Part shown: positions 30,599-60,060 of the stretch, in pieces
How the letters are laid out: every line of letters begins with the position of its first letter
Numbering within the stretch: the stretch's first letter is position 1
Source of the DNA: a virus
Virus record (IMG/VR): IMGVR_UViG_3300044645_002754
Span: 6,803 to 70,802 of that record
DNA length: 64,000 bases
Direction: 5' to 3' (one strand)
Program-made: the position numbers and the translations under genes
The notes under the pieces: generated by a model
What the model was told of the DNA's origin: nothing
The model's input: the letters and a program-made list of their open reading frames with translations, nothing else
The model's database searches: none

Positions 30599-30610
30599 GA
30601 GTACTACACC

Positions 30611-31927: not shown

Positions 31928-31988
31928 TTCTAGCCCGCAATGGCTCAAAACTAAACCCTAAACCTGTCGAATCCGGAGGATTCCCCTA

Positions 31989-32243
31989 ATGGCATTTACC
32001 GAACGTAAAGAGCACAAACTTGAAATCATCCCCCCGTTCTCCATCATCCAGTGCCGTGAAGCAAGCATTGTGGAGAAAGATGGTGTTGAAGTCGGTCGTA
32101 CTTATCACCGCCACTGTCGCACCCCAGGAGAAGACGTGAGCCAAGACTGCGCCGAACTGCAAGCTGTGGCAACTGCGCTGTGGACCCCGGATGTAATCGC
32201 AGCCTATGCGGCTTATCAAGCATCACTGAATCAGCCTGGGTAG
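31989..32243 (+). CDS. Small fibre-associated protein (chaperone-like)
   Basis: GGAGG RBS; EKDGVEVGRTYHRH..ALWTPDVIAAY. Confidence 0.7.
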   Translation: MAFTERKEHKLEIIPPFSIIQCREASIVEKDGVEVGRTYHRHCRTPGEDVSQDCAELQAVATALWTPDVIAAYAAYQASLNQPG

Positions 32244-32310
32244 TCCTAGTCACTAATTCTATGACCTACATCATTTCTCAGAACTATCCCGCCGCCCTGG
32301 AGGCAACCCC

Positions 32311-33534: not shown

Positions 33535-33536
33535 TC

Positions 33537-33788
33537 ATGACCACTTTAGATTGGAAAACGATCCTCCATTCTGATGGATCTATCGCTTACTGGCGAAGAC
33601 TTTCAGATGGTCGCCAAGAATCCGTCACGCCCGATCACCCCGAGTTTCTCGCTTGGCTCGCCGAGGGCAACACCCCCGAGCCTGCACCCGAGCCCACTCC
33701 TCCACCGGAGCTCACCCCTGAACAAAAACTGGCCGCCTCGGGCCTCAGCGTCGAGGACCTCCGCCAACTCCTCGGACTGGACCCATGA
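33537..33788 (+). CDS. Small Pro-rich partner protein 1
   Basis: WLAEGNTPEPAPEP..ELTPEQKLAASGL. Confidence 0.7.
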   Translation: MTTLDWKTILHSDGSIAYWRRLSDGRQESVTPDHPEFLAWLAEGNTPEPAPEPTPPPELTPEQKLAASGLSVEDLRQLLGLDP

Positions 33789-47883: not shown

Positions 47884-47922
47884 GTAAGTTTTGGACGCTT
47901 GAGACTTGTCCTTCAGGACGCC

Positions 47923-47957
47923 AGAGCCCCCGCCCCTGACCAGGCCGGGGGCTTTTT
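47923..47957 (+). terminator. Terminator-like hairpin
   Basis: AGCCCCCG...CGGGGGCT-TTTT. Confidence 0.6.
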
Positions 47958-48131
47958 GCTGGTCGGCGCCCATCCAGGACAAGCCACCGTACCGGCGCAA
48001 CCTGAATCGGACAAGCTGCAAATCCTGCGGATTTTGTGGAAAGGATGCCGACTTCGGCCGCAACCTTTTAAGGTTGGGTTGAACCCTTAAAGCCTTCAGG
48101 CGCAGAACTGGTGCCCAACCACACCGTTTCA

Positions 48132-48845
48132 ATGGCTCAGCCTCGACTGGAACGGGAAGTCGATCCCCTCACCCAGTTCGAGGGAGGCGTCCAGACCTTC
48201 GCCCTGCTGTTCACCCGCTGGATGGACACCAACGGCTGGTCACACCCAACGATGGTGACCCTGGCCAAAGCTTGCCTCGGCGGAACCGGCTGGCTCCACA
48301 GCAGCCAGATCAGCGGCCTCCGCCACGGGCGCCTCCTCAGCCCCGGCCCCCGGACCTTCATCGCTGTCGAGCGGCTCAACTTCTATATCCACCGCTACGC
48401 CACCACGAAAAAACTGCTCCCGGGCACCCCGGGCAGCAACCTCTACGCCAAGGCGTTCGCCATCACCGAGAACGACAAACCGCCCGAGCTCGGCTGGTGG
48501 GTCGAAGTCTTCTGCGGCCAACGCATCCCCCAGGACATCGACCTCCGTCAGACCTTCTTCACTGACGACCAAGCCACCAAGATCTCCAGCAGCTGGGGCG
48601 GGATGATCCGGAAGCTGATGATCCAGAAGGACATGGACATCATCGTTGAACTGGACCGGGTGCTCCGCGAGAGCTACCCCGCCAAGGATGCTGAACGTCT
48701 AAGCCGCGTCGCCAGCGTCATCCAGAACCGTGAGACCTGGAGCGCCCAGGAACTGGTGAACGAGCTCCCCGCCATCAGCAACCTCACCGCGAGCCTGGGC
48801 GGCCCCAAAACCGAGAGCGACCTGCTCCGCGCCCTCAAAGACTGA
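48132..48845 (+). CDS. Hypothetical protein, possible repressor (HTH-like N-terminus)
   Basis: Divergent from the replication genes; WSHPTMVTLA..LHSSQISGLRHG. Confidence 0.55.
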   Translation: MAQPRLEREVDPLTQFEGGVQTFALLFTRWMDTNGWSHPTMVTLAKACLGGTGWLHSSQISGLRHGRLLSPGPRTFIAVERLNFYIHRYATTKKLLPGTPGSNLYAKAFAITENDKPPELGWWVEVFCGQRIPQDIDLRQTFFTDDQATKISSSWGGMIRKLMIQKDMDIIVELDRVLRESYPAKDAERLSRVASVIQNRETWSAQELVNELPAISNLTASLGGPKTESDLLRALKD

Positions 48846-48932
48846 ATCCGCGCACCGCGCCACCATCTGTGGTGTCAACGGCTCCTTGCACACCATATGG
48901 GGCGGCTAGATTGAGGGGACTGCTTCTAGTTC

Positions 48933-49400
48933 GTGGACGTCACCTCCTTATTCGCCCCGGCACACGCTTCCCGACCGCTGCAGGCGATCAACTGGGAGTA
49001 CAAACACCTTTTTGACATCGAATTCATCGGTGAATCGGACCAGGAGTTCGTCCGCCTCATCTATGAAGACGACGAAAGCGGGGAAATGCACACCCTGCTG
49101 TGTGGCCGCCAGCATTACCGCCATCTGGGCCCATACATCGCTGACTTCCGCGCCTGGAAATCAGACCCCTACGCCCACGAAAACACTGTCATCCCAATCG
49201 CTCTGAGCCCCTGCGGTCGCGCTGTGTTCAGCCTCGCCGGCGCTGAGCACGACCACCCAGAGCTGGCCAGGCGCAACGTCAACGTCAAACTCCACCCCGA
49301 GGCCGCTCACCAAATCCGGAAAGCGGCCAAAGCCCGCGGCATGACTGGGGCCGAGCTCGTACTGACAGCCCTCCTCAAATCTGCATCCAAATTCGGTTGA
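48933..49400 (+). CDS. Hypothetical protein with a C-terminal RHH-like segment
   Basis: VNVKLHPEAAHQIRKAAKARGMTGAELV. Confidence 0.6.
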   Translation: MDVTSLFAPAHASRPLQAINWEYKHLFDIEFIGESDQEFVRLIYEDDESGEMHTLLCGRQHYRHLGPYIADFRAWKSDPYAHENTVIPIALSPCGRAVFSLAGAEHDHPELARRNVNVKLHPEAAHQIRKAAKARGMTGAELVLTALLKSASKFG

Positions 49401-49438
49401 CATCACGGGCTTAGGCTGACTTCAGTCGACCCTTCCGA

Positions 49439-49633
49439 GTGAGCACCAAGCACCGTCTTTACGGCGAGCTCAAGCGCAAACGGCATCTGTATCTCACGGA
49501 CACCGCACACACTCATCTGGTCGACCTGGCACACAGCTCTGGCTCTTCCCCCTCCGAGGTCTGCGAGCAGATCATTCGGAACCACGCCACCGCCGCCGCC
49601 ATCCCAGTCACCTCGGCATCTGACGCCCCATGA
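49439..49633 (+). CDS. Ribbon-helix-helix protein
   Basis: RHLYLTDTAHTHLVDLA..SPSEVCEQIIR. Confidence 0.65.
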   Translation: MSTKHRLYGELKRKRHLYLTDTAHTHLVDLAHSSGSSPSEVCEQIIRNHATAAAIPVTSASDAP

Positions 49634-50169
49634 CATCCGCATTCCTTTCCCTCGACCTTGTCGAAGAGATCTCCAAGGAGTCTTCGAGCAACGGTCGCTA
49701 CCTGAACCCCGCCAAACTCACCGGCGAAAAGCGTCTCCGCTTCTTCGGTGAAGGCATCACGGGTTACAGCGCCTGGACCATCGACAAGAAACCAATCCGC
49801 TGGGAAGCCAAGCCCGCCGAACTCCCCCCGAACCTGGCTCCCGACCTGAGCGGCAAAGTCACGCTCAAGCGCTTCCTGGCCGGCGTGGTCTACGACTACG
49901 AGGCCGGTGACTTCAAGATCCTGGAGATCACCCAGCGCACCCTGATGGACCAACTGTTCAAGTTCATCAAGGACGAGGACTACGGCGACCCCACCGGCTA
50001 CGACATCAAGATCAACAAGACCGGTGAAGGCAAAGAGACCGAGTACTCCCTCGTCGCTGCCCCGCCGAAGTCCGTCACCAAGGACATGGCCACCGCTTTC
50101 GAGAACCTGACCTGCAACTTGAAAGCCTTGTTCGATGGCGACGACCCTTGGGCTGAAGCTGCTGCCTGA
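49630..50169 (+). CDS. ssDNA-binding protein-like
   Basis: VYDYEAGDFKILEITQ..YGDPTGYDIKINKTG..TEY; acidic/aromatic tail. Confidence 0.65.
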   Translation: MTSAFLSLDLVEEISKESSSNGRYLNPAKLTGEKRLRFFGEGITGYSAWTIDKKPIRWEAKPAELPPNLAPDLSGKVTLKRFLAGVVYDYEAGDFKILEITQRTLMDQLFKFIKDEDYGDPTGYDIKINKTGEGKETEYSLVAAPPKSVTKDMATAFENLTCNLKALFDGDDPWAEAAA

Positions 50170-50188
50170 GTTCACCAGTTCCTGAACG

Positions 50189-50212
50189 GGGCGGGCCGTA
50201 ACCCGCCCTTTT
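50189..50212 (+). terminator. Rho-independent terminator
   Basis: GGGCGGG-ccgtaa-CCCGCCC-TTTT. Confidence 0.8.
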
Positions 50213-50240
50213 CGATACTGTTGGCAAAACCTTTGTGCCC

Positions 50241-50495
50241 ATGTCCGCGAACCAGCCGCCTCTCCTGCACGTCTACGCACGAAATGTCGAGCACTGTGCG
50301 TTCAAGCGCGGTTGGTCGACGCCTCGACTGGCCACAGAACTCGGCGTCTCGCTGAACACGCTCAACCGCATCCGCTTCGGCCGCAGCCGCTACCTCGACC
50401 CCGAGGTCTTCACAGCGCTGCTGGAGCTGTTCGGTTGTGAACCCAACGACCTCCTGCTCCCCCAGCCCGGCATTGACTACGCCATCACTGACTGA
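50241..50495 (+). CDS. XRE/Cro-like HTH protein
   Basis: WSTPRLATELGVSLNTLNRI..LFGCEPNDLL. Confidence 0.8.
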   Translation: MSANQPPLLHVYARNVEHCAFKRGWSTPRLATELGVSLNTLNRIRFGRSRYLDPEVFTALLELFGCEPNDLLLPQPGIDYAITD

Positions 50496-51180
50496 ACGTC
50501 TCCGGGCTCTCCCCCGCTACGAGCCTGTCCGCTCCCACGAGGGCGACGAGCGTCTCTACGCCACCCCCGTCGGCTCCTGCCCCTCGGTCACCACGATCCT
50601 CTCCGGCTCCCGCGACAACTCCGGCCTCGAAGCCTGGCGCGAATCCGTCGGCCACGAGCGCGCTGACTTCATCAGTTCCCTGGCCTGCTTCCGGGGCAAC
50701 AACCACCACCTAGCAATCGAGCGGTACCTCACCGACGGCACCGAGCCCGGCTTCGACTTCCTCCAGACCCCCTACTGGAAGAGCACCAAGTCCTTCCTCA
50801 CCACCGTCGACGCACCGCTCCTCCTTGAGGGCGCGATCTGGCACCCCGACGGCTTCGCCGGCACGCTCGACTGCCTCGCCTACCTCGCCGAAGACGGTCT
50901 CCAACCGACATTGCTCGACTGGAAAACGGCTGACACCCCCCGCAAGCCCGACAAGATTTACGAGTACTCGCTGCAATGCGCCGCGTACACCGCCGCAGCG
51001 AACTACGTCTACGGCCACCTGGGCCTGCACATCACCCAGGCCAAGATCGTCATCGCCATCGCGGACTCCCCTCCGCAGATCGAGACCCTCGACGCCCGGG
51101 CCCTCGAACAGCTCTACAAACACTTCCTCGCCCGGCTGAAGCGCTTCACCTTCAGCCGAGCCCGGAGGTCAAAACGATGA
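50473..51180 (+). CDS. PD-(D/E)XK exonuclease
   Basis: PSVTTILS, FAGTLDC, LLDWKT and LQCAAY motifs. Confidence 0.85.
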   Translation: MTTPSLTERLRALPRYEPVRSHEGDERLYATPVGSCPSVTTILSGSRDNSGLEAWRESVGHERADFISSLACFRGNNHHLAIERYLTDGTEPGFDFLQTPYWKSTKSFLTTVDAPLLLEGAIWHPDGFAGTLDCLAYLAEDGLQPTLLDWKTADTPRKPDKIYEYSLQCAAYTAAANYVYGHLGLHITQAKIVIAIADSPPQIETLDARALEQLYKHFLARLKRFTFSRARRSKR

Positions 51181-51572
51181 AGCGCGAACAAAACAAGGTC
51201 GAGGAATACCTGAGTTCCGCCATCGCCGGCTCGCTCATCGGCCAAATCGCCAGCCGCCGCGAGCTCAGCTTCTACACGCTGCTGGGCCCCAGTTTTGACG
51301 GCGACTCCCCCGAACTCCGCGCCCTCAGCGACGAACTCACCGAGCTCGGCATCAACCCCGACCTCCTCGCCAACCACGCCCTCTCCAGCCTGGTCGCCCT
51401 CTTCGTCGAAGAGAGCAACGCCAACTTGATCGTCTGCCAATACACCTCGCTCCTCTGGTCAATCCTCGGCGACCCCAAAAACGGGGGCAAACCCCCCGAG
51501 ATCTACCGCAAAGCCGGCGTCGCAATGCACCTCGCCCTCCTCGGAATCCTCGACCCCTCCTTCCCCGAGTAA
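51177..51572 (+). CDS. Hypothetical protein
   Basis: ATGA-coupled; GGAGG RBS. Confidence 0.65.
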   Translation: MKREQNKVEEYLSSAIAGSLIGQIASRRELSFYTLLGPSFDGDSPELRALSDELTELGINPDLLANHALSSLVALFVEESNANLIVCQYTSLLWSILGDPKNGGKPPEIYRKAGVAMHLALLGILDPSFPE

Positions 51573-51579
51573 CCCAGTC

Positions 51580-52155
51580 ATGCGCACCCCACCCCGTCTG
51601 ATCGGCCTCTACAGCCCGGCCCCCCGCTCCGGCAAAACCACCATCGCCCGCTACCTGATCGACGCGGGCTACGAAACCATCTCCTTCGCCCACCCCATCA
51701 AGCGCATGGCCACGGTCCTGCTGATGGAACTCGGCCACGACCTCGACACCATCAACCGCCTCCTCGAGTACGGCAAAGGCGACACCATCCCCGGCATCAA
51801 AACCAACCTCCGCCACATCCTCCAAACCCTCGGCACGGAGTGGGGCCGCGACTGCATCCACCCCGAGCTCTGGCTGATGTGCTGGGAGCACGCCGCCACC
51901 CGCCAACTCAACAACGGCTTCAACGTCGTCTGCGACGACATCCGCTACCCCAACGAAGCCGCCCTGATCCGCCGTCTCGGCGGCGAAATCTGGTGCGTCA
52001 CCCGCCCCCACACCGAGCGCGGCACCAGCCACTCCTCCGAGGGCTCCCTCGACAACTACCCCCTCTTCGACCGCCGCATCCTCAACGACGGCACCTTGCT
52101 CAACCTCTACGAGCGCATCCAACAAATCCTGACCCCCCAATCCATCGCCGTCTAA
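51580..52155 (+). CDS. Deoxynucleoside monophosphate kinase
   Basis: RSGKTT, SFAHPIK, RHILQTLGTEWGR, DDIRYPNE and HSSE motifs. Confidence 0.9.
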   Translation: MRTPPRLIGLYSPAPRSGKTTIARYLIDAGYETISFAHPIKRMATVLLMELGHDLDTINRLLEYGKGDTIPGIKTNLRHILQTLGTEWGRDCIHPELWLMCWEHAATRQLNNGFNVVCDDIRYPNEAALIRRLGGEIWCVTRPHTERGTSHSSEGSLDNYPLFDRRILNDGTLLNLYERIQQILTPQSIAV

Positions 52156-52157
52156 CC

Positions 52158-52409
52158 ATGCCCCCCATCCCCACCAAATCCGTAACCCTGGCCCCCGAGC
52201 CCGGCGACATCCGCACCTACCCCTGGCGCTTCCAACTCGGCGAGCTCGTCTACATCAAAGGCTGGCCCCTCGACGAAGTCCTCACCGTCATCGGCGGCGA
52301 ACTCTGGCTCGGCTTCCCCCACCTCCGCCTGTACCACCGGGACGGCACCACCTGGCGTGTCCCCCAGCTGCACTGTTCCTCCAAACCGATCAGCTTCCGC
52401 AAGCCCTGA
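52158..52409 (+). CDS. Hypothetical protein
   Basis: ATG 52158; codon bias. Confidence 0.6.
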   Translation: MPPIPTKSVTLAPEPGDIRTYPWRFQLGELVYIKGWPLDEVLTVIGGELWLGFPHLRLYHRDGTTWRVPQLHCSSKPISFRKP

Positions 52410-52412
52410 CGC

Positions 52413-53036
52413 ATGCCCGCCGAGTTCGTCCACTGCACCCCCGACGCCGAGCGCCTCATTGTCAAGATGGCCCGCGTCAGCAACCCCGACAACGCCGACA
52501 ACTGGGACACCGGACCCAAGCTGCTGCGCTACCTCATCGCGCACCGCCACTGGTCCCCCTTCGAGATGGCCTCGCTCTGCCTCCGCCTCGAAACCGAGCG
52601 CGACATCGCGGCCCAACTCCTGCGCCACCGCAGCTTCTCCTTCCAGGAGTACTCAACCCGCTACGCCCGCACCACCCTGGCCGAGTGCCCGCCCCAGCGT
52701 CTCCAAGACACCACCAACCGTCAAAACAGCCTGGACACCATCCCCTTCGCGATGAAGTCCTACTGGGACCTTCGTCTCGGCCGCGTCATCGGTGACGCCT
52801 TCCTCCTCTACGAAGACATGCTCACCGAGGGCGTCGCCAAAGAAACCGCCCGCCGCATCCTGCCGCTCTGCACCCCCACCACGCTGTACATGCACGGCAC
52901 GCTGCGCAGCTGGATCCACTACATCGACGTCCGTTGCGACCCCGGCACCCAACTCGAACACCGCGAGCTCGCCACAGAGTGCAAAGCAATTTTTACTACC
53001 CAATTCCCCACCATCGCTGAAGCGGCTTGGCCATAG
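52413..53036 (+). CDS. thyX: FAD-dependent thymidylate synthase
   Basis: HWSPFE and QLLRHRSFSFQEYSTRY signature. Confidence 0.96.
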   Translation: MPAEFVHCTPDAERLIVKMARVSNPDNADNWDTGPKLLRYLIAHRHWSPFEMASLCLRLETERDIAAQLLRHRSFSFQEYSTRYARTTLAECPPQRLQDTTNRQNSLDTIPFAMKSYWDLRLGRVIGDAFLLYEDMLTEGVAKETARRILPLCTPTTLYMHGTLRSWIHYIDVRCDPGTQLEHRELATECKAIFTTQFPTIAEAAWP

Positions 53037-53045
53037 CACCAAGCT

Positions 53046-53167
53046 CTGGGCCTCCTTTTTAGGTGTAAGTCCCTGGTTTTGCGGCACCCTGCATCGCCTT
53101 GCAGCGCGGCGCACGGCCCCGCACAGCGGTGCGCCGCAAAGCACAGCTCCCCGCACCGAGTCGGGGA
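53046..53167 (+). ncRNA. Pentamer-repeat RNA candidate, unit 1
   Basis: Leader with AGGTGTAAGTCCC; 14 xGC-NN pentamers at 53080-53149; hairpin TCCCCG-CACCGAGT-CGGGGA. Confidence 0.75.
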
Positions 53168-53196
53168 CCCCAACCCCTACGAGGAACTCACCATCA

Positions 53197-53865
53197 ATGG
53201 CTTTTCTCCGCTATTCAGTAGAGCTAACAGGCACAGCACCTTTGCTCTGCTCTAACAATTGCACAATCGATCAACTCGGCACTCCAGCTGACATCCTTGG
53301 CTGGTACCACAAGATCCCGCAGAAGAAGCGAGAGCTCCGCGTAGAGCGTTCAATGCGCAACTTTCATTGGCTTTTCAGCGGCTACTGGAAACACGAAGGT
53401 GCGGTCCAGCACCCTTCAGAGACAGATGGCTGCGATGTTTTCGAGAACTACGCTGATCCGATTCTTCCCGCTCCCAACTTGCAGCGCTGTTTGCGTGATG
53501 CTGCAACGGCGTGGAAGCTTGGTAAAGACGTCTCACGCTCCACAATCGTGGAGAACGACTCCCCAATTACATACAACGGCCCGCGAGAAGCCCGCGCCAT
53601 GCTCAAAGATGGGCGTTTCTACAGTTGCCGCCCTAATGGCAGAGGGAACATGGCTATCCGCGTCATGTTCCCTGAATGGAGCGTCCGCTTCCGCGTGCTG
53701 ATTAACGACGAAATCATGGGAGAACGGGATTTTGTCAAGATTCTTGATCGCGCAGGAGTAGCTGAAGGCTTGGGAGCCTGGCGCCCTGGCAGCCCTAAGG
53801 GCGGGCGTTTCGGCCGCTTTTCTGTTACTGATTTCACCCCGCTCTCATTTGAGGAGGCCGAGTGA
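53197..53865 (+). CDS. Stand-alone Cas7/RAMP-like protein
   Basis: VELTGTAPLL (first strand), ILPAPNLQRCLRDAA (RAMP helix), FPEWSVRFRV, Gly-rich loop AGVAEGLGAWRP...GRFGRFSV; GAGG RBS. Confidence 0.8.
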   Translation: MAFLRYSVELTGTAPLLCSNNCTIDQLGTPADILGWYHKIPQKKRELRVERSMRNFHWLFSGYWKHEGAVQHPSETDGCDVFENYADPILPAPNLQRCLRDAATAWKLGKDVSRSTIVENDSPITYNGPREARAMLKDGRFYSCRPNGRGNMAIRVMFPEWSVRFRVLINDEIMGERDFVKILDRAGVAEGLGAWRPGSPKGGRFGRFSVTDFTPLSFEEAE

Positions 53866-54371
53866 TGGAAACTCATAACGCCACAATTGACTACATCAAC
53901 CTGCGCAAAGGAGACCGCATCGAGGCCGACGTCGTTTGGAACTTCTACGCTTTGCTCAAACCCGAGGTTTATCAGAACTGGATCGACGAGCACGGCAACG
54001 AAGATCTAGCCAAAGCGGCACACATGCCCCAAACTCTCGTCCGAGTTCGCGACTGGATCGACGCACGCCGTAACGCACTGGACCTTCCCCCTCTCGTTAT
54101 CAACACTAAAAACACCGGGCTCAATGTTCTCAACGACGAAGAGGCCAGTCGTTACCTCTCCGACCGTGCTTTCGCCGGTCTGCGCCAGCACGCCAAGAAC
54201 ACCGGCAGACTGATCGCAGCGGTTGACGAGACACAGCTCAGCTCTGCCGCGTTGCGTGAACACGAAAGCCGATTGCGTACACATAGCTTCGTTCTTGCTT
54301 CCACCCATGGGGCCCAGACGATGCTTCGCAAGCTGCGCCGGGAGGGCAGAGAGGCTCCCAAGCTGAAGTAA
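53865..54371 (+). CDS. Partner protein of the RAMP-like gene
   Basis: TGATG coupling; same atypical codon usage; 168 aa. Confidence 0.75.
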   Translation: METHNATIDYINLRKGDRIEADVVWNFYALLKPEVYQNWIDEHGNEDLAKAAHMPQTLVRVRDWIDARRNALDLPPLVINTKNTGLNVLNDEEASRYLSDRAFAGLRQHAKNTGRLIAAVDETQLSSAALREHESRLRTHSFVLASTHGAQTMLRKLRREGREAPKLK

Positions 54372-54372
54372 T

Positions 54373-54484
54373 CCCTGGGCTTCCTTCCGAGGTGTAAGTC
54401 CCAGGGCCGCCGCATTGCTCCGCGTCGCATCGCACCGCGCCACTTCGCCCCGCAAAGCCTAGGCCCCCACACCGAGTTGAGGGC
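54373..54484 (+). ncRNA. Pentamer-repeat RNA candidate, unit 2
   Basis: CCCTGGG...AGGTGTAAGTCCCAGGG hairpin; 10 pentamers at 54411-54460; hairpin GCCCcCA-CACCGAGT-TGaGGGC. Confidence 0.75.
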
Positions 54485-54486
54485 AC

Positions 54487-54613
54487 CAACCCAACACAGA
54501 GTCCCGGCTCTCTGGTGGGTTGACCTACCACCGCCGCCGTGCATCGCATCGCTCACCTCCGCAACCCACCGCCGTGCTCCGCAGCGCAACGACCTCTGCA
54601 CCGAGTCAGAGGT
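54487..54613 (+). ncRNA. Pentamer-repeat RNA candidate, unit 3
   Basis: CAACCCA...TGGGTTG hairpin; 11-12 pentamers at 54530-54589; hairpin ACCTCTG-CACCGAGT-CAGAGGT. Confidence 0.75.
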
Positions 54614-54631
54614 ACTACACAAGAACAACAA

Positions 54632-54979
54632 ATGACTCAACCCTTACGCATCACAATCGAGTCAACCGCCGATGGATATCTGCGGTGGGAGATGGTTTGC
54701 GGTCCGGACGGAAAGCTCCATTTCGCAGGCACGTCGCCGCTGCTCGAAAGATGTTTTGAGGATTTGATCAGAGCCCAATGGACCCTCGCCGACCACCTCA
54801 CAGCTGACCCGGACCCCGAGCCCGACTGGCTGCCTGACCCACCCGCGCACCAGACGCCCATCCCCGAGGTCCATCCGACCGCTGGCGCTGCGCTCCCCGT
54901 GCAACAGGACATCCCAGCCGGCGGCCATCTAACTAAACCTTCCGAACTTTTTTACCCTCACCCATCCAGTTCTGGTTGA
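54632..54979 (+). CDS. Hypothetical protein
   Basis: ATG 54632; 5' half has atypical codons, 3' half is C-rich. Confidence 0.6.
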   Translation: MTQPLRITIESTADGYLRWEMVCGPDGKLHFAGTSPLLERCFEDLIRAQWTLADHLTADPDPEPDWLPDPPAHQTPIPEVHPTAGAALPVQQDIPAGGHLTKPSELFYPHPSSSG

Positions 54980-54989
54980 CAATGCCCGC

Positions 54990-55865
54990 ATGTCTCAATC
55001 AGAAGTACACAGCTATCTGACCGAGATCGGTCGCCACCCGGTCCTCTCGAAAGAGGCCCAGCTGCGGCATTGCCAGCGCATCTACGCCTGGGTCCACCAC
55101 GAGGCCGGCCGCGACGCAGCCCCCGACCGCATCCGCCGCTCCGGCTCCCGCTCCATGGAGGTGATGATCCGCACCAACCTCCGCCTGGTCGTCTCCATCG
55201 CCAAGCGCTACCAGGGTCGGGGCCTGGACCTCGCCGACCTCATCCAAGAAGGCAACCTGGGCCTGATCCGCGGCCTCGAGCTCTACGACCCGACCCGCGG
55301 CTACGCCGTCTCCACCTACGCCTACTGGTGGATCCGCCAAGCCATCACCCGGGCCCTCCACACCCACGCCCGCTCGATCCGCCTGCCAATCAACACCCAC
55401 GAACTGCTCGCCCGCATCCAGCGCTTCACCACCGAGCACACCAGCCTCTACGGCACCGCCCCCACCGTGCTCCAAATCGCCGAATACACCGACACCAGCC
55501 CTGAGCGCATCGCCCAAGTCCTCCAAACCCACACGCTGACCGCCTGCTCCTCCCTCGACGCCATCACCACCGAGGGCGGCACCACAATCATCGACCTCAT
55601 CCCCTCCCCCACCGAATCCAACGAAAGCGAACCGGACGAAGTCCTCGCCCTCGACGCCAACAAAGAAGCCGTCCAAGCAGCCCTCGCGGCCCTGAACCCC
55701 ACCGAATTCCGGATCATCCAAGCCTCCTTCTTCCAGGGCCGCACGCTCAAAGACATCGCCACCGAGTTCGGTTTCAGCCGCTGCCGCGCCGGCCAAATCC
55801 AAAAAACCGCCATCCGCAAACTCCGCATCACCCTGTCCCTCGCTGGCCACGCCCCCACCCCATGA
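54990..55865 (+). CDS. RNA polymerase sigma-70 family factor (RpoD-like, cyanobacterial type)
   Basis: YLTEIGRHPVL, NLRLVVSIAKRY, DLIQEGNLGL, STYAYWWIRQAI and a region 4 HTH. Confidence 0.95.
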   Translation: MSQSEVHSYLTEIGRHPVLSKEAQLRHCQRIYAWVHHEAGRDAAPDRIRRSGSRSMEVMIRTNLRLVVSIAKRYQGRGLDLADLIQEGNLGLIRGLELYDPTRGYAVSTYAYWWIRQAITRALHTHARSIRLPINTHELLARIQRFTTEHTSLYGTAPTVLQIAEYTDTSPERIAQVLQTHTLTACSSLDAITTEGGTTIIDLIPSPTESNESEPDEVLALDANKEAVQAALAALNPTEFRIIQASFFQGRTLKDIATEFGFSRCRAGQIQKTAIRKLRITLSLAGHAPTP

Positions 55866-56047
55866 GCCCCTCCCCCATCGTTCCCCTGCGCTGGTACGAA
55901 CTCTGGATGCTCCGCTTCCTCTCCCGCAGCCCCCGCATCCAACGCATCACGATTTGGCAGGCCAGCCTCGAGCCCGTCGCCCCGGCCCAACCCGACCTCG
56001 TGGAGCAGCTCGAATCCCTGTACGAGGGCCCCCCAGCCCAGCGGTAG
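55862..56047 (+). CDS. Small hypothetical protein
   Basis: ATGA-coupled. Confidence 0.6.
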   Translation: MSPSPIVPLRWYELWMLRFLSRSPRIQRITIWQASLEPVAPAQPDLVEQLESLYEGPPAQR

Positions 56048-56075
56048 AGTTGCGGTAACTCCCCTAGAACGTCAA

Positions 56076-56453
56076 GTGCCCGCCAAGAAGCCTGTCCCCA
56101 GAGCCGAATTCTTCGCCATCTGCGAGGACCATTACCGGCGGGACGGCTTCGTGAAGTGGGCTGCAGTCGCGGAACAACTCGGCGTGACCCGCCAAGCAGT
56201 AGCCGTGCGCCTTGAGAAGGCAGTACGGAATGGCCACCTGTCGGAAGATGACTACAAGCGCTGGGCTGGAACCAAGGCCAGAGAGGTGTTCTCCACCGAG
56301 CGCGAGGCCGAACGCCAGGAGAAGAAAAGACGCACAATCGCGACCTTATTAACCCCAGAGAACCACGACTGGGTAACCAACGAATGCGCACGACGCCACA
56401 TTCGGTCGGGCGATTTAATAAACGAACTTATTAACGGAGCCCGAATCAAATAG
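56076..56453 (+). CDS. HTH DNA-binding protein
   Basis: WAAVAEQLGVTRQAVAVRL. Confidence 0.7.
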   Translation: MPAKKPVPRAEFFAICEDHYRRDGFVKWAAVAEQLGVTRQAVAVRLEKAVRNGHLSEDDYKRWAGTKAREVFSTEREAERQEKKRRTIATLLTPENHDWVTNECARRHIRSGDLINELINGARIK

Positions 56454-56563
56454 GCGAATACCAACACATACATATTAAATTTTTACTGGCCCGGCGATGT
56501 GCAATCACTCGCCCCCATGTCTCACGGCAAGACTCAGTGAGACCCAGGGTTTTCCGCAGGGGG

Positions 56564-56820
56564 TTGACGGGTGCGCCGAGTTGCCGTAGGATGCTCTCAC
56601 GCGCGCACGCGCCGCGCGTTCTATCTCTGCCCGAGCATCCCCACGGGCTCGCTCTGCAGGGGTTGACGGATCGCCCGATTACCCCTTACCTTGGTTTCAA
56701 CGGATCGAAAGCACCCGCGGCCGTCGCGCCCGGTTCTCCGCTCTCGCTCCCAGGCCACCGGCTCGCCCGGCAGCCGCCAAACCCAGGGGGTTGACGGATC
56801 GCCCGATTAACCCTTACCAT
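56564..56820 (+). promoter_or_regulatory. Three tandem sigma-70-type promoters
   Basis: TTGACG-17-TAGGAT (56564), TTGACG-18-TACCTT (56663), TTGACG-18-TACCAT (56791); the last two are near-identical ~32-nt repeats. Confidence 0.75.
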
Positions 56821-57416
56821 TCAGAGGCAACCGATTCAGGAAGCGAACATGCACTGACCCATAGCGCAACCGAACAAGCGCGGCCGGCCTGGCGGATCCC
56901 AGGAGCGATAGCTGTGGCAGCGTCCGGACTGACTGGGCGCTAGCTGTGGGCAACGGCTTTCATGCCGGCCTCACGTACGACCTGCTCGGATCACACCGAG
57001 CACGACGACCGGCACCGACATACCCAAACGCCATAACGACGGGCGATAGCGGGTGAGGTGCTCAGTAGCCGATGGTTGGGGTGCTCATGGCGAACGCGGA
57101 ACCTCCTGCAGAGGGGTGCTGCCACCGGTGTTTGTTTAGGGAGCGCTCCTGCAGGGCTCCCGGCGTCCTCCTAACCGAGGGCGTGGTGCGCCGGCCCCTT
57201 AACGCCCGGCCTGCAGGCATGGTGGTTCTGATCCACCCGGTGTCCGTCCCGCTGACTGACAACGGTGGCCGCGTGCCCACCGTGGCAACGAGCACTCGGC
57301 TCTGCTCAGCACGCACAAAACATCTCCCCCAGAAGTTCCCCCTGGCGCACTGCGTCCGGGGGTCTTTTGGCTGAGGTGCTTTGCATCTCCATCCCTCTCA
57401 AGCTGTGAGTTCAGCC

Positions 57417-57650
57417 ATGCAATTCGACTCACGCCGGGCCACCTGCCCCGGCTACCTGGAGTTCATCTGGCGCACCGACACCCCCCTCCCCGAGGGCGCC
57501 AACCCACAAGCCATCGCCTACATCACCGACACCTACAGCACCCCGCGCAAGCCCTGGTTCTGCGGTGTCTACGGCATCCACGTCGTCGAAGGCGCCTCCA
57601 TCGCCTCCGTCAAGTCCGAGCTGTTCGCCCTGATCGAAGCCGGCCAATGA
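57417..57650 (+). CDS. Small early hypothetical protein
   Basis: Strong codon bias; first of a coupled gene run. Confidence 0.7.
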   Translation: MQFDSRRATCPGYLEFIWRTDTPLPEGANPQAIAYITDTYSTPRKPWFCGVYGIHVVEGASIASVKSELFALIEAGQ

Positions 57651-57877
57651 TCACCACCCACGCCACCGAGCACGACTTCTCCCGTTGGGAAGCTCACGCC
57701 AAAACCCTCGACGCCTACTCCCTCCGCTACGTCATCTCCGACTGCAAGCAAGCTGCAGCCGGCATGTTCGGGTGGAATCCTTCCCGCGAGGGCTACTACC
57801 TCGACCAAGCCGCCACCTACGGCATGGAACTGACGCGCCGCAACCGCCAGCTCCCGCCCGCCTTGCGCCACCGCTAA
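57647..57877 (+). CDS. Small early hypothetical protein
   Basis: ATGA-coupled. Confidence 0.7.
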   Translation: MITTHATEHDFSRWEAHAKTLDAYSLRYVISDCKQAAAGMFGWNPSREGYYLDQAATYGMELTRRNRQLPPALRHR

Positions 57878-57900
57878 CCGATTCAGGAACTGCACACGCC

Positions 57901-58068
57901 ATGACCGCAACGCTCCACATCCATCCGGAGGACTTCGACGCCCTCCTCAAATACTTCGCTCGCGCAAACCAGCTCCATTACGACGGCTACTGCACCGAGG
58001 ACGAGTTCAACACCGTGCAGGACTACATCGACCAGATCAAAGACCTCGCCCTGAACTACCGCCAATGA
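57901..58068 (+). CDS. Small early hypothetical protein
   Basis: AGGA RBS; codon bias. Confidence 0.65.
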   Translation: MTATLHIHPEDFDALLKYFARANQLHYDGYCTEDEFNTVQDYIDQIKDLALNYRQ

Positions 58069-58268
58069 AAACCCACTTCCACGATCCGGCCCAACCACCT
58101 GTCACTCCCGAGCAACTGCGCTCCGTAGGTGTGGACCCCACCGACCTCTATTGGTCCGGCACGTTCCGCTCGTGGCGCTTCGCTGGCGCCACTGCCAGCC
58201 GCTCCCCTTACTTCTCCACCGGCCAGATCCTCCACGAGCTCGGCCTCACCCCCGACCCCCGCGCCTGA
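58065..58268 (+). CDS. Small early hypothetical protein
   Basis: ATGA-coupled. Confidence 0.65.
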   Translation: MKTHFHDPAQPPVTPEQLRSVGVDPTDLYWSGTFRSWRFAGATASRSPYFSTGQILHELGLTPDPRA

Positions 58269-58273
58269 CAACC

Positions 58274-58558
58274 ATGCTCATCATCGACACCTGCTCCGGC
58301 ACCGTCCTCGCCGCCGAGTACTGCGTCCTCGTGCCTGACGCCGCCCTCACCGAGGCCGAATGGGACGCCCTCGACGCCATGTCCGACAGCGAAGTGTCCG
58401 CCCTCGCCCGAGAGCGTGGCCGGCCAATCCTTCCGGACGCTCAAGCCCTCGACGCTGTCGCGGAGTTCTTGTCCGGTGAGGACTGGTCCTCCGAATACAT
58501 CGAAGCAGTAGCTGACACGGTCCGCGCCACAGGCCGCACCATCGCCGACCTGCCATGA
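58274..58558 (+). CDS. Small acidic early protein
   Basis: Codon bias; acidic composition. Confidence 0.65.
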   Translation: MLIIDTCSGTVLAAEYCVLVPDAALTEAEWDALDAMSDSEVSALARERGRPILPDAQALDAVAEFLSGEDWSSEYIEAVADTVRATGRTIADLP

Positions 58559-58755
58559 CCATCACCTTCTCCCGATCCCACGGCGGCTATGTCGTCCGCC
58601 TCGACCGCAACCTGATCGGCCTACTGCTGGCGCCGCGCCCCCACGAACAGGACTGGCGCATCCTCACCGAGCACGGCGACTGCGCCAGCGCCCCCACGTT
58701 GCAGGACGCCAAGCGCCTCGCCGCCGACTTCCTCATCCTCGATCACGCCGCCTAA
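58555..58755 (+). CDS. Small early hypothetical protein
   Basis: ATGA-coupled. Confidence 0.65.
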   Translation: MTITFSRSHGGYVVRLDRNLIGLLLAPRPHEQDWRILTEHGDCASAPTLQDAKRLAADFLILDHAA

Positions 58756-58760
58756 CCGCC

Positions 58761-59147
58761 ATGGCTACCCGCTCCGCCATCGGCTACGCCCTGCCCTCCG
58801 GCAAGGTGCGCGCCGTCTACTGCCACTGGGATGGCTACCCCGCCCACCAGCTGCCCATCCTCGAAGAGCACTACCCCACCTTGTCCAAGGTGCGCGAGCT
58901 CATCCGCCCGGGCTCAATGTCCGCGCTCCGCACCTCCCAAATCTGGGAGTCCGAAGCCACCCGCGACCCCCAACCCCTCTACCACCACGAGCGCGGTGCC
59001 GGCCCCTGGTCCGCCGGTGACGGCGGCTACGGCGACCCCCCGTTCTCCGTGCCCGATGCCGACGCCCCCTCCCACTGGGCCAAGTACGGCTGCGAGCACC
59101 TCTACATCTTCCGCCCCGGCTACGGCTGGTTCCACTACGAGCTCTGA
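58761..59147 (+). CDS. Conserved phage protein (TRSxIG...YCHWDGYP family)
   Basis: MATRSAIG..VYCHWDGYP..EHLYIF motif. Confidence 0.8.
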   Translation: MATRSAIGYALPSGKVRAVYCHWDGYPAHQLPILEEHYPTLSKVRELIRPGSMSALRTSQIWESEATRDPQPLYHHERGAGPWSAGDGGYGDPPFSVPDADAPSHWAKYGCEHLYIFRPGYGWFHYEL

Positions 59148-59150
59148 CCC

Positions 59151-59855
59151 ATGCCCACCAACCCCAACGGTCGAGTCCTCTACGAGGGCCCGTCCCTGCT
59201 CGATGGCGCCCCCATCGTCGTCATCGCCACCGGCTTCGCCGAGCGCTCAGGCAACGCCAAGACCGGCTCGATGATCCAAACCTGGATCCTCCGCCAGGAC
59301 ATCCCCCCTCACCACGCCTTCCGCGGCCCCGAGGGCGGCTCGGTCTGCGGCGACTGCTCCCACCGCCTCAATGACACCTGCTACGTCTCCTGGTGGCAGG
59401 CCCCGCTCGCCGTCTGGAACTGCTGGCACCACGGCGCCGGCTACGCCCCGGCTTCTCCGGCTGACTTCGACGACGTGCTCCTTCGCATCGGCTCCGGTGG
59501 TGACCCATGCGCTGTGCCCGAGCACGTCTGGCTTCCACTGATCAGCCGCGTAGCGGCCCACACCGGGTACACCCACCAATGGCGCAACCCCGTCGCTGCC
59601 TGGGCCCGGGGCGTGCTTCAAGCCAGCTGCGACGGCTTCGCCGACTACCTCGACGCCACCGCCCACGGCTGGGCCACCTTCCTCGTGACCCCTCCGGATG
59701 CGCCCGCCCCGGCCGGCACCGTCCACTGCGCCGCCTCTGCCGAGCGCGGCCACAAAACCACCTGCGCTGCCTGCACCCTCTGCGACGGCGCCACCACCAA
59801 CGTCGTAATCCACGCCCACGGCTCCCGCGCCTCCCGCGTGGCCCTCCGTAACTGA
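59151..59855 (+). CDS. Conserved Cys-rich phage protein (possible metal/Fe-S binding)
   Basis: NAKTGSMIQTWIL, VCGDC..CYV, TGYTHQW and CAACTLC..HG motifs. Confidence 0.8.
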   Translation: MPTNPNGRVLYEGPSLLDGAPIVVIATGFAERSGNAKTGSMIQTWILRQDIPPHHAFRGPEGGSVCGDCSHRLNDTCYVSWWQAPLAVWNCWHHGAGYAPASPADFDDVLLRIGSGGDPCAVPEHVWLPLISRVAAHTGYTHQWRNPVAAWARGVLQASCDGFADYLDATAHGWATFLVTPPDAPAPAGTVHCAASAERGHKTTCAACTLCDGATTNVVIHAHGSRASRVALRN

Positions 59856-59874
59856 TTCCTGAATTGGTTGACTC

Positions 59875-60060
59875 ATGACCAGCCTCCGCCCAAGATCTCA
59901 ACGTCGCCCCCGCGCCCCCATGCCCCCCTGGCTTGCCGCCGAGCACCTCGCCGGCTTCGTCCTTGGCCTGGCCCTCGCCGCCATGGCCATCGACCACGGA
60001 ATGCAGCACCCCACCAACACGCTGCCCAGCCCTGTCCCCACCACCTACCCGGGCCCATGA
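59875..60060 (+). CDS. Small membrane protein
   Basis: Single hydrophobic helix LAGFVLGLALAAMAI. Confidence 0.55.
   Translation: MTSLRPRSQRRPRAPMPPWLAAEHLAGFVLGLALAAMAIDHGMQHPTNTLPSPVPTTYPGP

What the first reader, a model, noticed from the sequence alone, without database searches (positions are those of the whole stretch)
53148..54613. Invariant CACCGAGT loop on three different stems, plus a shared leader hairpin
Seen: the stems TCCCCG/CGGGGA (53148-53167), GCCCcCA/TGaGGGC (54463-54484) and ACCTCTG/CAGAGGT (54592-54613) differ in sequence but keep pairing and the same 8-nt loop. Units 1 and 2 share CTGGGC.TCCT...AGGTGTAAGTCCC (core at 53061 and 54390); unit 3 has a different 5' hairpin. 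Inference: this covariation indicates selection on RNA structure, as a processing, capping or protein-recognition handle that releases individual RNAs.
Basis: partly seen in the sequence, partly recalled or inferred. Interest (0 to 1): 0.75.

Follow-up and report, generated by a model that had tools for sequence, protein, structure and literature searches.

The report
Guide-RNA tails of a phage VIPR system

Summary
Three intergenic hairpins (53148-53167, 54463-54484, 54592-54613) carry the same 8-nt loop on three different stems.

They are not free-standing. Each closes a ~60-75-nt tract of 5-nt repeats (Y-G-C-N-N). The three units flank two genes.

Gene A (53197-53865) matches the solved SUSP1 Vipr protein (profile E 3.5e-38) and folds like Cas7/Csm3. 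The locus is therefore a VIPR system (Viral Interference Programmable Repeat, bioRxiv 2026): vipr, an accessory gene, one guide RNA (vrRNA) gene upstream and two downstream. The hairpins are the vrRNA 3' tails.

Six related loci have a GC-rich hairpin at the same place with unrelated stems, so structure is selected. Their loops are tetra- or pentaloops, and CACCGA lies at the 5' foot of the stem in 7 of 25 tails.

Under the published 1-nt-skip code, vrRNA3 matches a conserved gene of sibling phages. It scores 21 of 22 in one relative and 18-19 of 22 in nine more, with skipped letters at codon position 3. The phage's own copy scores 16 of 22, and both its Arg codons there are the rare AGA.

No RNA data exist. 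This is a new member of a known kind, with a variant repeat consensus and a simple hairpin tail.

The parts
53041..53078 (+). Conserved 5' element, copy a (CTGGGC.TCC...AGGTGTAAGTCCC), directly after the ThyX stop codon and before guide tract 1
   Evidence: Alignment of 8 copies from 7 loci has 21 invariant columns. It is conserved in sequence, with little covariation, so a hairpin is not proven.
53074..53147 (+). vrRNA1 guide tract: about 14 pentanucleotide repeats (n-n-y-G-C)
   Evidence: GC..GC at lag 5 = 12; 0 of 2000 dinucleotide shuffles reach it; G 13/14 and C 13-14/14 in phase.
53148..53167 (+). vrRNA1 3' tail hairpin: 6-bp stem, loop CACCGAGT
   Evidence: Unchanged in a diverged population contig that has 15 differences in the 80 nt downstream.
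53197..53865 (+). vipr gene (222 aa, RAMP/Cas7-like)
   Evidence: Profile against PDB hits 36pp_D 'SUSP1 Vipr protein' at E 3.5e-38; single sequence E 2.3e-11. AF2 pLDDT 89.5. Foldseek finds Csm3/Cmr4/Cas7 at E 4e-5 to 1e-3. phrog_4652.
53865..54371 (+). Accessory gene in the vap position (168 aa), start overlapping the vipr stop
   Evidence: Follows vipr in 7 of 7 loci at 48-52% identity. No Pfam hit, no fold match at E<=0.001, no similarity to the gene after vipr in phage wV8.
54370..54407 (+). Conserved 5' element, copy b, directly after the vap stop codon
54403..54462 (+). vrRNA2 guide tract: about 11 pentanucleotide repeats
   Evidence: Lag-5 count 7; 2 of 2000 shuffles reach it. Population variants fall on N-N letters, and one restores the conserved G.
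54463..54484 (+). vrRNA2 3' tail hairpin: 7-position stem with one A-A mismatch, loop CACCGAGT
   Evidence: A variant contig has C>T at 54472 in the loop.
54487..54530 (+). Inter-unit element between vrRNA2 and vrRNA3: hairpin 54487-54522, or alternative pairing 54513-54530 that uses the same TGGTGGG
   Evidence: The CYGGTGGGYT word lies between array units in all 7 loci, with changed inner stems. Its role is unknown.
54523..54591 (+). vrRNA3 guide tract: about 12-13 pentanucleotide repeats
   Evidence: Lag-5 count 6; 3 of 2000 shuffles reach it. The guide read from it matches gene C of relatives.
54592..54613 (+). vrRNA3 3' tail hairpin: 7-bp stem, loop CACCGAGT
54632..54979 (+). Gene C (115 aa, unknown function), directly upstream of the sigma-factor gene. 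Its homologues in sibling phages carry the predicted vrRNA3 target. The own site 54740-54771 is recoded.
   Evidence: Own site 16 of 22, relatives 18-21 of 22, same peptide LLERCFED... The only two AGA codons of the gene lie in the site, and AGA is 3 of 486 Arg codons in 14 long ORFs.
54990..55865 (+). Phage sigma-70-family factor gene (context; used to find relatives)
   Evidence: Pfam Sigma70_r2, r4 and others. 591 related stretches were found in viral contigs and 80 kept.

Best explanation
The region 53041-54613 is a VIPR locus of a ~70.8-kb lake-water phage. It holds vipr (53197-53865), an accessory gene (53865-54371) and three guide-RNA (vrRNA) genes, one upstream and two downstream.

Each vrRNA is about 80-90 nt. 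It has a tract of 11-14 pentanucleotide repeats, in which Y-G-C is held by the protein and the two variable letters read the target. A short GC-rich hairpin follows. The three CACCGAGT-loop hairpins are these 3' tails.

[quoted passage not shown] The cap should mark where the filament starts and protect or define the 3' end after the RNA is cut out of a longer transcript. No sigma-70-like promoter is seen inside the locus. The stem is needed as a shape. The shared loop word is the sequence-specific part in this phage.

At least vrRNA3 is aimed at the conserved gene just upstream of the sigma-factor gene in sibling phages that lack VIPR. The carrier escapes by synonymous recoding of its own copy.

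Shown here: protein homology, repeat periodicity, hairpin covariation, restriction of the units to vipr flanks, and the coded match with wobble phasing. Inferred: transcription, processing, Vipr binding to the tail, and silencing.
For: (1) Gene A is a Vipr. The profile hits PDB 36pp_D 'SUSP1 Vipr protein' at E 3.5e-38 and the single sequence at 2.3e-11. The model (pLDDT 89.5) matches Csm3/Cmr4/Cas7 chains, 43 of them at E<=0.001.

(2) The architecture equals the published one: vipr plus one accessory gene, long intergenic flanks, one ~100-nt vrRNA upstream and an array downstream, each a tract of 9-16 pentamers followed by a structured 3' tail (paper 10.64898/2026.04.26.720920, Results read).

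(3) Pentamer periodicity. GC at lag 5 scores 12, 7 and 6; 0, 2 and 3 of 2000 shuffles reach these values. Across 221 phased pentamers of 28 units the position before GC is 86% pyrimidine and the two after it are variable. The same test on known Vipr loci (wV8, LESphi2) shows GG at lag 5.

(4) Tails. In 23 distinct tails from 7 loci, 131 of 138 cells pair over six stem positions, against 40-90 of 138 (44 of 115 at shift +3) when the partner is slid by 1-3. Each position has 2-5 pair types.

(5) The units occur only beside vipr-vap. There are three in this genome. In three complete related genomes, the only other matches to the inter-unit word are two chance hits inside genes. Fifteen relatives of this phage that keep the flanking genes lack vipr, vap and the units.

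(6) Target. The vrRNA3 guide with 1-nt skip gives 21 of 22 in L034 and 18-19 of 22 in nine more of the 15 relatives, all at the same site of gene C. Shuffled-order controls reach at most 17-18. Skips of 0 and 2 reach at most 17. Only the N-N register recurs across loci (10 strand-loci at >=18 of 22, against 0-1 for the other registers, whose best scores are 17-19). Skipped letters fall on codon position 3 in all 11 sites.

(7) The own site scores 16 of 22, and both Arg codons in it are AGA, which is 0.6% of Arg codons elsewhere.

(8) Population variants in the tracts fall on N-N letters (4 of 6), the Y letter (1) or restore the conserved G (1).
Against: There is no RNA evidence. No RNA run holds the locus, so transcription, RNA ends and strand are inferred.

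The repeat triplet is Y-G-C, not the G-G-Y of the characterised systems.

The accessory protein has no detectable similarity to the gene after vipr in wV8 (prob 0.4%) and no fold match.

The tail here is a plain hairpin. The published SUSP1 tail is a ~40-nt sequence-invariant pseudoknot, and I found no convincing pseudoknot partner for the loop (only 4-nt complements, read).

The loop word is not conserved as a loop in relatives, so its role is open.

vrRNA1 and vrRNA2 have no match above controls in 1.19 Mb of held sequence.

Whole-region folding is no better than shuffles.
Confidence: 0.85

Rival explanations
1. The hairpins are ordinary mRNA punctuation: processing sites (for example RNase III or RNase E) or 3'-end stabilisers and terminators that separate cistrons. 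They have no link to guide RNAs.
For: They lie between genes, 18-30 nt before start codons for units 1 and 3. The unit 1 hairpin read on the - strand passes a terminator-like scan. No internal promoter is seen, so processing of a long transcript is needed anyway.
Against: No T-run follows the hairpins on the + strand. The 15 sibling phages with the same flanking genes have none of them. They occur only beside vipr-vap and always after a pentamer tract. This reading explains neither the 5-nt periodicity nor the coded match to gene C.
Confidence: 0.06
2. The ~130-nt units are DNA-level recombination repeats that move the two-gene cassette between phages, like the promoter-stem-loop cassettes flanking variable genes in T4-type phages (recalled, not checked here). 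The hairpins are incidental.
For: vipr-vap is a compositional island (GC 52-58% against ~65%, with the C-skew lost). It is absent from 15 syntenic relatives and sits in other gene contexts in L119-L124. The closest relative L033 has other AT-rich genes at the same spot, flanked by 27-nt direct repeats.
Against: Units 1 and 2 are only 72-81% alike, which is poor for homologous exchange. Stems co-vary while their sequence is free, which DNA repeats do not need. The periodic tract and the Vipr homology give a direct function. The two readings can co-exist: a mobile module whose flanks are its RNA genes.
Confidence: 0.05
3. The conserved word and hairpin form a promoter or operator for the phage sigma factor encoded 380 nt downstream, or for another DNA-binding protein.
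For: A sigma-70-family gene follows at 54990. The motif is over-represented in the window.
Against: Relatives with 52-77% identical sigma factors have no such hairpins within 5 kb. Other VIPR loci have the hairpins next to unrelated genes. Different stem sequences argue against a sequence-specific duplex DNA site.
Confidence: 0.03

Closest known systems
Type II VIPR system of Escherichia phage SUSP1 (Vipr, vap1, four vrRNAs). Sources: bioRxiv 10.64898/2026.04.26.720920 (Results sections and passages read); 10.64898/2026.04.26.720927 (passages); 10.64898/2026.10.15.759431 (passages); PDB 36pp.
   Same: Homologous Vipr protein. Two-gene locus, with one vrRNA upstream and an array downstream. ~80-100-nt units made of a pentamer tract plus a structured 3' tail. 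Target read by the two variable letters with one skipped base, the skipped base falling on codon position 3. Aimed at a competing mobile element. Lower self-match than non-self match.
   Different: The conserved triplet is Y-G-C instead of G-G-Y. Two Vipr residues that the structure paper's legend names as contacts of the first G (H17, D175) are S and A/T in this clade, but H and D in wV8 and LESphi2. The tail is a 20-22-nt hairpin whose stem differs between the three vrRNAs of one phage, not a ~40-nt invariant pseudoknot. The accessory protein is not detectably related. The predicted target is a sibling phage's own conserved gene rather than a satellite.
VIPR of the Pseudomonas fulva prophage clade; a relative was examined here, Pseudomonas phage LESphi2 (L138).
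   Same: Vipr homologue at 29% identity. GC-rich tracts of GGC-NN repeats upstream of vipr. A ~163-aa gene follows vipr, with a weak resemblance to gene B (hhalign E 0.008, prob 5%).
   Different: The first repeat letter is G there. According to a passage of 10.64898/2026.04.26.720927, that clade lacks a 3' pseudoknot fiducial. Its tails were not analysed here.
Class 1 CRISPR crRNA with its repeat-derived hairpin handle and Cas7 backbone
   Same: A RAMP fold protein that, by the published model, polymerises along a guide RNA whose variable part is capped by a conserved structured handle.
   Different: There is no repeat-spacer array, no Cas6/Cas5/large subunit and no adaptation genes. The guide is read discontinuously (2 of every 5 RNA letters against 2 of every 3 DNA letters). 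The system is carried by a phage.

Membership tests
VIPR system | Vipr protein: a minimal RAMP homologous to the characterised Vipr | tested here: met
   PDB 36pp_D 'SUSP1 Vipr protein' at E 3.5e-38 (profile) and 2.3e-11 (single sequence). Cas7-family fold matches.
VIPR system | A vipr-accessory gene (vap) next to vipr | tested here: met
   A 167-171-aa gene overlaps or abuts the vipr stop in 7 of 7 loci. This is membership by position and conservation only.
VIPR system | vap predicted to interact with DNA (types II, VI, VII: DNA-binding folds) | tested here: inconclusive
   The model is moderate (pLDDT 75). No Foldseek match at E<=0.001; the weak top rows are winged-helix regulators at E>1. 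Atlas structure rows with HTH families have TM 0.43-0.48.
VIPR system | Intergenic vrRNA genes with 9-16 tandem pentanucleotide repeats: a conserved triplet alternating with two variable letters | tested here: met
   About 14, 11 and 12-13 repeats. The lag-5 signal is reached by 0, 2 and 3 of 2000 shuffles. Logo from 221 pentamers.
VIPR system | Triplet consensus GGY | tested here: not met
   The consensus is Y-G-C (C 70%, T 16% at the first position). The paper allows 'a related consensus' in other types (fig. S17, legend seen only). The logos are in figures I could not see.
VIPR system | Conserved structured 3' tail directly after the tract | tested here: met
   There is a hairpin at the tract end in 28 of 28 units. 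24 tail windows were centred (23 distinct), leaving out four tails with odd loop lengths; they gave 131 of 138 paired cells against 40-90 of 138 slid.
VIPR system | Tail pseudoknot (SUSP1 clade feature, not general) | tested here: inconclusive
   Only 4-nt complements to the loop were seen downstream, by eye. No pseudoknot-aware folding was run.
VIPR system | Locus layout: one vrRNA upstream of vipr and an array downstream, same strand | tested here: met
   Unit 1 lies upstream and units 2 and 3 downstream, all on the + strand.
VIPR system | Targets obey the 1-nt skip rule, with skipped bases on codon wobble positions | tested here: met
   vrRNA3: 21 of 22 and 18-19 of 22 in 10 of 15 relatives. 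Controls reach at most 18, other skips at most 17, and other registers do not recur. Codon position 3 in 11 of 11 sites. vrRNA1 and vrRNA2: no target found in held sequence.
VIPR system | vrRNAs are expressed as ~100-nt RNAs and co-purify with Vipr | not testable with these tools
   24 lake-water DNA runs hold the locus; no RNA run does.
CRISPR array | Near-identical direct repeats of 25-40 nt separating unique spacers, usually with cas genes | tested here: not met
   Units are 72-81% alike over 36-82 nt, and their stems differ. There is only one RAMP gene and no other cas-like gene in the locus.
Any Rfam family (ribozymes, known phage RNAs) | Covariance-model match | tested here: not met
   0 matches at E<=1 in window 48000-60000 and in L119-L123.

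The most novel reading that the evidence does not exclude
This lake-phage clade runs a shifted VIPR code and a minimal tail. The protein-held triplet is Y-G-C, because the two residues that grip the first G in SUSP1 Vipr are replaced (H to S, D to A/T). The 3' cap is reduced to a bare hairpin of free stem sequence. Its only sequence-specific determinant is the word CACCGAG(U), which works either in the loop (this phage) or at the 5' foot of the stem (relatives). The system is used for warfare within one phage lineage. It silences the gene in front of the sigma-factor gene of VIPR-less siblings during co-infection, and the carrier is immune through Arg codon-family switching (CGN to AGA), the one synonymous change that a wobble-skipping code can see.
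Probability: 0.4. Interest if true: 0.65.

Novelty: new member of a known kind. Interest (0 to 1): 0.5.

Why it matters
VIPR was described only in 2026 and characterised in two enterobacterial/Pseudomonas clades. This is an uncultured freshwater example that can be read end to end from sequence: protein, three guides, tails, a predicted natural target and the carrier's escape.

It points to three testable things. First, the conserved triplet, and so the protein-RNA grip, can change together with two named residues. Second, a plain hairpin may suffice as a tail, which would simplify engineered guides. Third, targets can be a sibling phage's core gene, with self-immunity bought by synonymous Arg recoding.

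For the scan, it shows that 'same loop on different stems' plus a C-rich periodic tract beside a small unannotated gene is a usable signature for finding VIPR loci.

Tried and rejected
- **Motif scans of public collections.** CCGCAAAGC..CACCGAGT in viral contigs gave 32 hits, none with a stem of 4 or more pairs. Leader..loop in viral contigs gave 0 hits. The same pattern in metagenome contigs gave 7 hits, of which 6 were chance and 1 (L119) was a true relative.
- **Single-protein locus searches.** Searches with A and with B in viral contigs found nothing. An alignment of B found 5 loci.
- **Annotated phages.** DNA similarity found only sigma-factor and ThyX pieces. B has no tblastn hit.
- **Rfam.** No match.
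- **Promoters.** No sigma-70-like promoter in 52900-54700.
- **Sigma-factor promoter idea.** Rejected because relatives with the same sigma factor lack the hairpins.
- **Other ideas considered from memory only.** Chi-like reading of CTGGTGGG, integron attC, REP/RAYT and type III toxin-antitoxin repeats were dropped once Vipr homology appeared. None was tested.
- **Pro-rich 'CC' periodicity at 52146.** This turned out to be a small conserved ORF, not a guide tract.
- **MAFFT alignment of tails.** It mis-registered the stems, so pair counts were made on centred windows in a script. No covariance model was built.
- **RNA evidence.** No RNA holder is listed.
- **Targets of vrRNA1 and vrRNA2.** None was found above controls in 5 whole relatives, the own genome and all held loci.
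- **Guides of relatives.** Of 25 guides from relatives, 18 were long enough to test and none exceeded shuffled controls by more than one match in held sequence. The best were two marginal cases, 17 of 20 and 19 of 24.
- **Gene C function.** Unknown.
Full report
**What is there**

The window is bases 6803-70802 of a single 70.8-kb virus record with 63% GC. Near-identical DNA is held by 24 lake-water metagenome runs, and no RNA run holds it.

The three hairpins are exactly as described. CACCGAGT occurs 8 times in the window against 2.2 expected. Only the three intergenic copies are framed by stems of 6-7 positions. Such hairpins occur at 153 of 64000 positions, so chance is excluded.

The hairpins end three related ~130-nt units: U1 53041-53176, U2 54370-54492 and U3 54493-54615. 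These align with each other. By nhmmer they are the only three units in the genome.

**Surroundings**

The gene order is dNMP kinase (51580-52155), ThyX (52413-53036), U1, gene A (53197-53865), gene B (53865-54371), U2, U3, gene C (54632-54979) and a sigma-70-family factor (54990-55865).

A and B form a compositional island. Their GC is 52-58% against ~65% around them, and the strong C-skew of the neighbours is lost.

Using the sigma factor I fetched 80 related loci. The 15 closest (L033-L047) keep the kinase-...-sigma order, 11 of them with a recognisable gene C. They have no A, no B, no units and no CACCGAGT hairpin. The module is therefore an insertion in this phage.

**Relatives of the module**

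A two-motif scan of metagenome contigs gave 7 hits, one of them real: L119, with homologues of A (51% identity) and B (49%). An alignment of B then found five viral contigs, L120-L124.

All six loci have the same design: one to three units before A and two or three after B. In three complete genomes among them, the inter-unit word occurs only beside A-B, apart from two chance hits inside genes.

**Identity**

A profile of 43 A homologues hits one PDB sequence, 36pp chain D 'SUSP1 Vipr protein', at E 3.5e-38. The single sequence gives 2.3e-11. The AlphaFold model (pLDDT 89.5) matches Csm3, Cmr4 and other Cas7-family chains.

Vipr is the protein of VIPR systems. I read the Results of bioRxiv 10.64898/2026.04.26.720920 and passages of 10.64898/2026.04.26.720927 and 10.64898/2026.10.15.759431. 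They describe:

- a phage-borne two-gene locus (vipr, vap);
- ~100-nt vrRNAs, one upstream and an array downstream;
- each vrRNA built of 9-16 pentanucleotide repeats (conserved GGY alternating with variable NN) followed by an invariable structured 3' tail, which in SUSP1 is a pseudoknot capping the RNA's 3' end;
- target DNA read by the NN letters with one skipped base per repeat, the skipped base falling on codon wobble positions;
- targets in competing mobile elements.

**Tests of that reading here**

*Periodicity.* The stretch before each hairpin is 5-nt periodic. GC recurs at lag 5 twelve, seven and six times. Only 0, 2 and 3 of 2000 dinucleotide shuffles reach these values.

*Consensus.* Over 221 phased pentamers from 28 units the consensus is Y-G-C-N-N. 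The same test on the Vipr loci of phages wV8 and LESphi2 shows GG at lag 5, a positive control for the published GGY form.

*Tails.* Every one of the 28 units ends in a GC-rich hairpin directly after the tract. I centred 24 tail windows, 23 of them distinct; four tails with odd loop lengths were left out. In these, 131 of 138 cells pair over six stem positions. When the partner is slid by 1-3 columns, 40-90 of 138 pair (44 of 115 at shift +3). Each position shows 2-5 pair types, and there are 17 different 5' arm words. The hairpin is thus selected as a structure.

*Target code.* Taking the two variable letters of 11 pentamers of U3 and joining them with one free position gives a pattern. It matches the antisense strand of gene C in relative L034 at 21 of 22 letters, and nine further relatives at 18-19 of 22, always at the same site.

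- Guides with shuffled dinucleotide order reach at most 17-18.
- Spacings of 0 or 2 reach at most 17. Spacing 3 finds only the vrRNA gene itself.
- Taking any other two positions of the pentamer gives no recurrent match.
- The free positions fall on codon position 3 in all 11 sites.

*Self-avoidance.* The phage's own gene C encodes the same peptide (LLERCFEDLIR) but matches at only 16 of 22. Both Arg codons in the site are AGA where relatives have CGN. They are the only AGA codons of the gene, and AGA is 3 of 486 Arg codons in 14 long ORFs of this genome. I read this as self-target avoidance by the one kind of synonymous change that a wobble-skipping code can detect.

**What the hairpins are**

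They are the vrRNA 3' tails. [quoted passage not shown] A shared tail makes an RNA competent for Vipr complex formation (passage of 10.64898/2026.10.15.759431). No sigma-70-like promoter lies in 52900-54700, so the RNAs are probably cut from a longer transcript. The hairpin would then also fix or protect the 3' end. These functional steps are inferred.

**What is peculiar here**

*The loop.* Relatives have loops of 4-5 nt such as UUCG, GUAA, GCAA, UACG. The word is not lost, though. CACCGA lies directly 5' of the stem in 7 of 25 related tails, CACCG in 3, and CACAG/CGCAG in 12. The same short word is therefore presented single-stranded either at the foot of the stem or, in this phage, in the loop. 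I take it to be the sequence-specific part of the tail. What reads it (a terminal Vipr protomer, or a processing enzyme) is unknown.

*The triplet.* The first letter is Y where characterised systems have G. A figure-legend passage of the structure paper names H17 and D175 as the contacts of that G. In my alignment the two GGY-type proteins (wV8, LESphi2) have H and D there, while this phage and three relatives have S and A/T. The residues named for the second and third letters, R136 and R177, align with R in all six sequences (R155 and R196 here); the legend's Y176 aligns with an aromatic W/Y column (W195 here).

*The 5' elements.* CTGGGC.TCC...AGGTGTAAG follows a stop codon and precedes the first tract. 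It is invariant at 21 columns in 8 copies but shows little covariation, so 'leader hairpin' is not established. Between array units lies a different element, whose TGGTGGG can pair either upstream or downstream. Neither matches any Rfam family. They may be 5' processing signals.

**Population data**

One contig from another run differs at 13 places over 52982-54600.

- In the tracts, four changes hit N-N letters, one hits the Y letter and one restores the conserved G.
- One change is in the loop of U2 (54472 C>T).
- A second, more diverged contig keeps the U1 hairpin unchanged while the next 80 nt carry 15 differences.

These are single contigs and weak evidence.

**Limits**

- There is no RNA evidence.
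- vrRNA1 and vrRNA2 have no target in the 1.19 Mb I held. Public scans for them were not run.
- Gene B is a vap by position and conservation only.
- I could not see the supplementary logos and tables of the VIPR papers, so this clade may already be classified there. The main texts of two of the three papers do not contain the words YGC, CGCNN, freshwater, lake (searched in the October paper only), metagenom (searched in the first paper only) or sigma factor. A library search for vrRNA finds only the three VIPR preprints plus one paper with a single mention.

**Verdict**

The thing itself is a VIPR guide-RNA tail. The kind is known (2026 preprints), so this is a new member, with a variant repeat consensus, a minimal hairpin tail, and a predicted sibling-phage target with self-immunity by recoding.

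Noticed in passing
L033:3676-4031 (closest relative; same spot between the ThyX-like gene and gene C): Other AT-rich genes are inserted where this phage carries vipr-vap. A 27-nt direct repeat (3676-3702 and 4005-4031, 93% alike) includes the end of the upstream gene. The site looks like a hot spot for cassette gain.
   Followed up: partly
window 54487-54530; L119-L124 between array units: An inter-unit element has a nearly invariant CYGGTGGGYTG. It can pair either with an upstream CCCAxCAC arm or with a downstream CCTACCA, two mutually exclusive hairpins. It has no Rfam match. It may be a processing or switching signal between guide RNAs.
   Followed up: partly
window 52159-52409 (+): A small Pro-rich ORF of 83 aa lies between the dNMP kinase and ThyX genes and is conserved in L033. 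My GC3-based gene list missed it, and its CC periodicity mimicked a repeat tract.
   Followed up: partly
L121:1570-1610 and L120:1455-1500: Upstream arrays in these two relatives begin after a good sigma-70-like promoter (TTACAA, 17 nt, TAGAAT in L121, read by eye). This phage has none in its locus, so expression may differ between carriers.
   Followed up: no
window 45073-48132 (-): A 1019-aa protein has a primase-polymerase part 33% identical to one in Synechococcus phage S-LBS1. The sigma factor's nearest annotated DNA matches are also cyanosiphoviruses (S-CBS1, S-CBS3). This hints at a picocyanobacterial host, but nothing was tested.
   Followed up: no
window 30598-33603: A 3-kb stretch has no high-GC3 ORF in my crude gene list, possibly another compositionally foreign segment. 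It was not examined.
   Followed up: no
G007 (whole record of L035) near 65734-65743, inside its sigma-factor gene: The upstream guides of L123 and L124 give their best 1-nt-skip matches here (20 of 30 and 19 of 24). These are at or just above shuffled controls (19-20 and 17-18), so they are marginal and unconfirmed.
   Followed up: no
window 53265-53320 region of vipr (residues ~70-88): Vipr of this clade carries an ~18-residue insertion that is absent from the wV8 and LESphi2 proteins (alignment).
   Followed up: no
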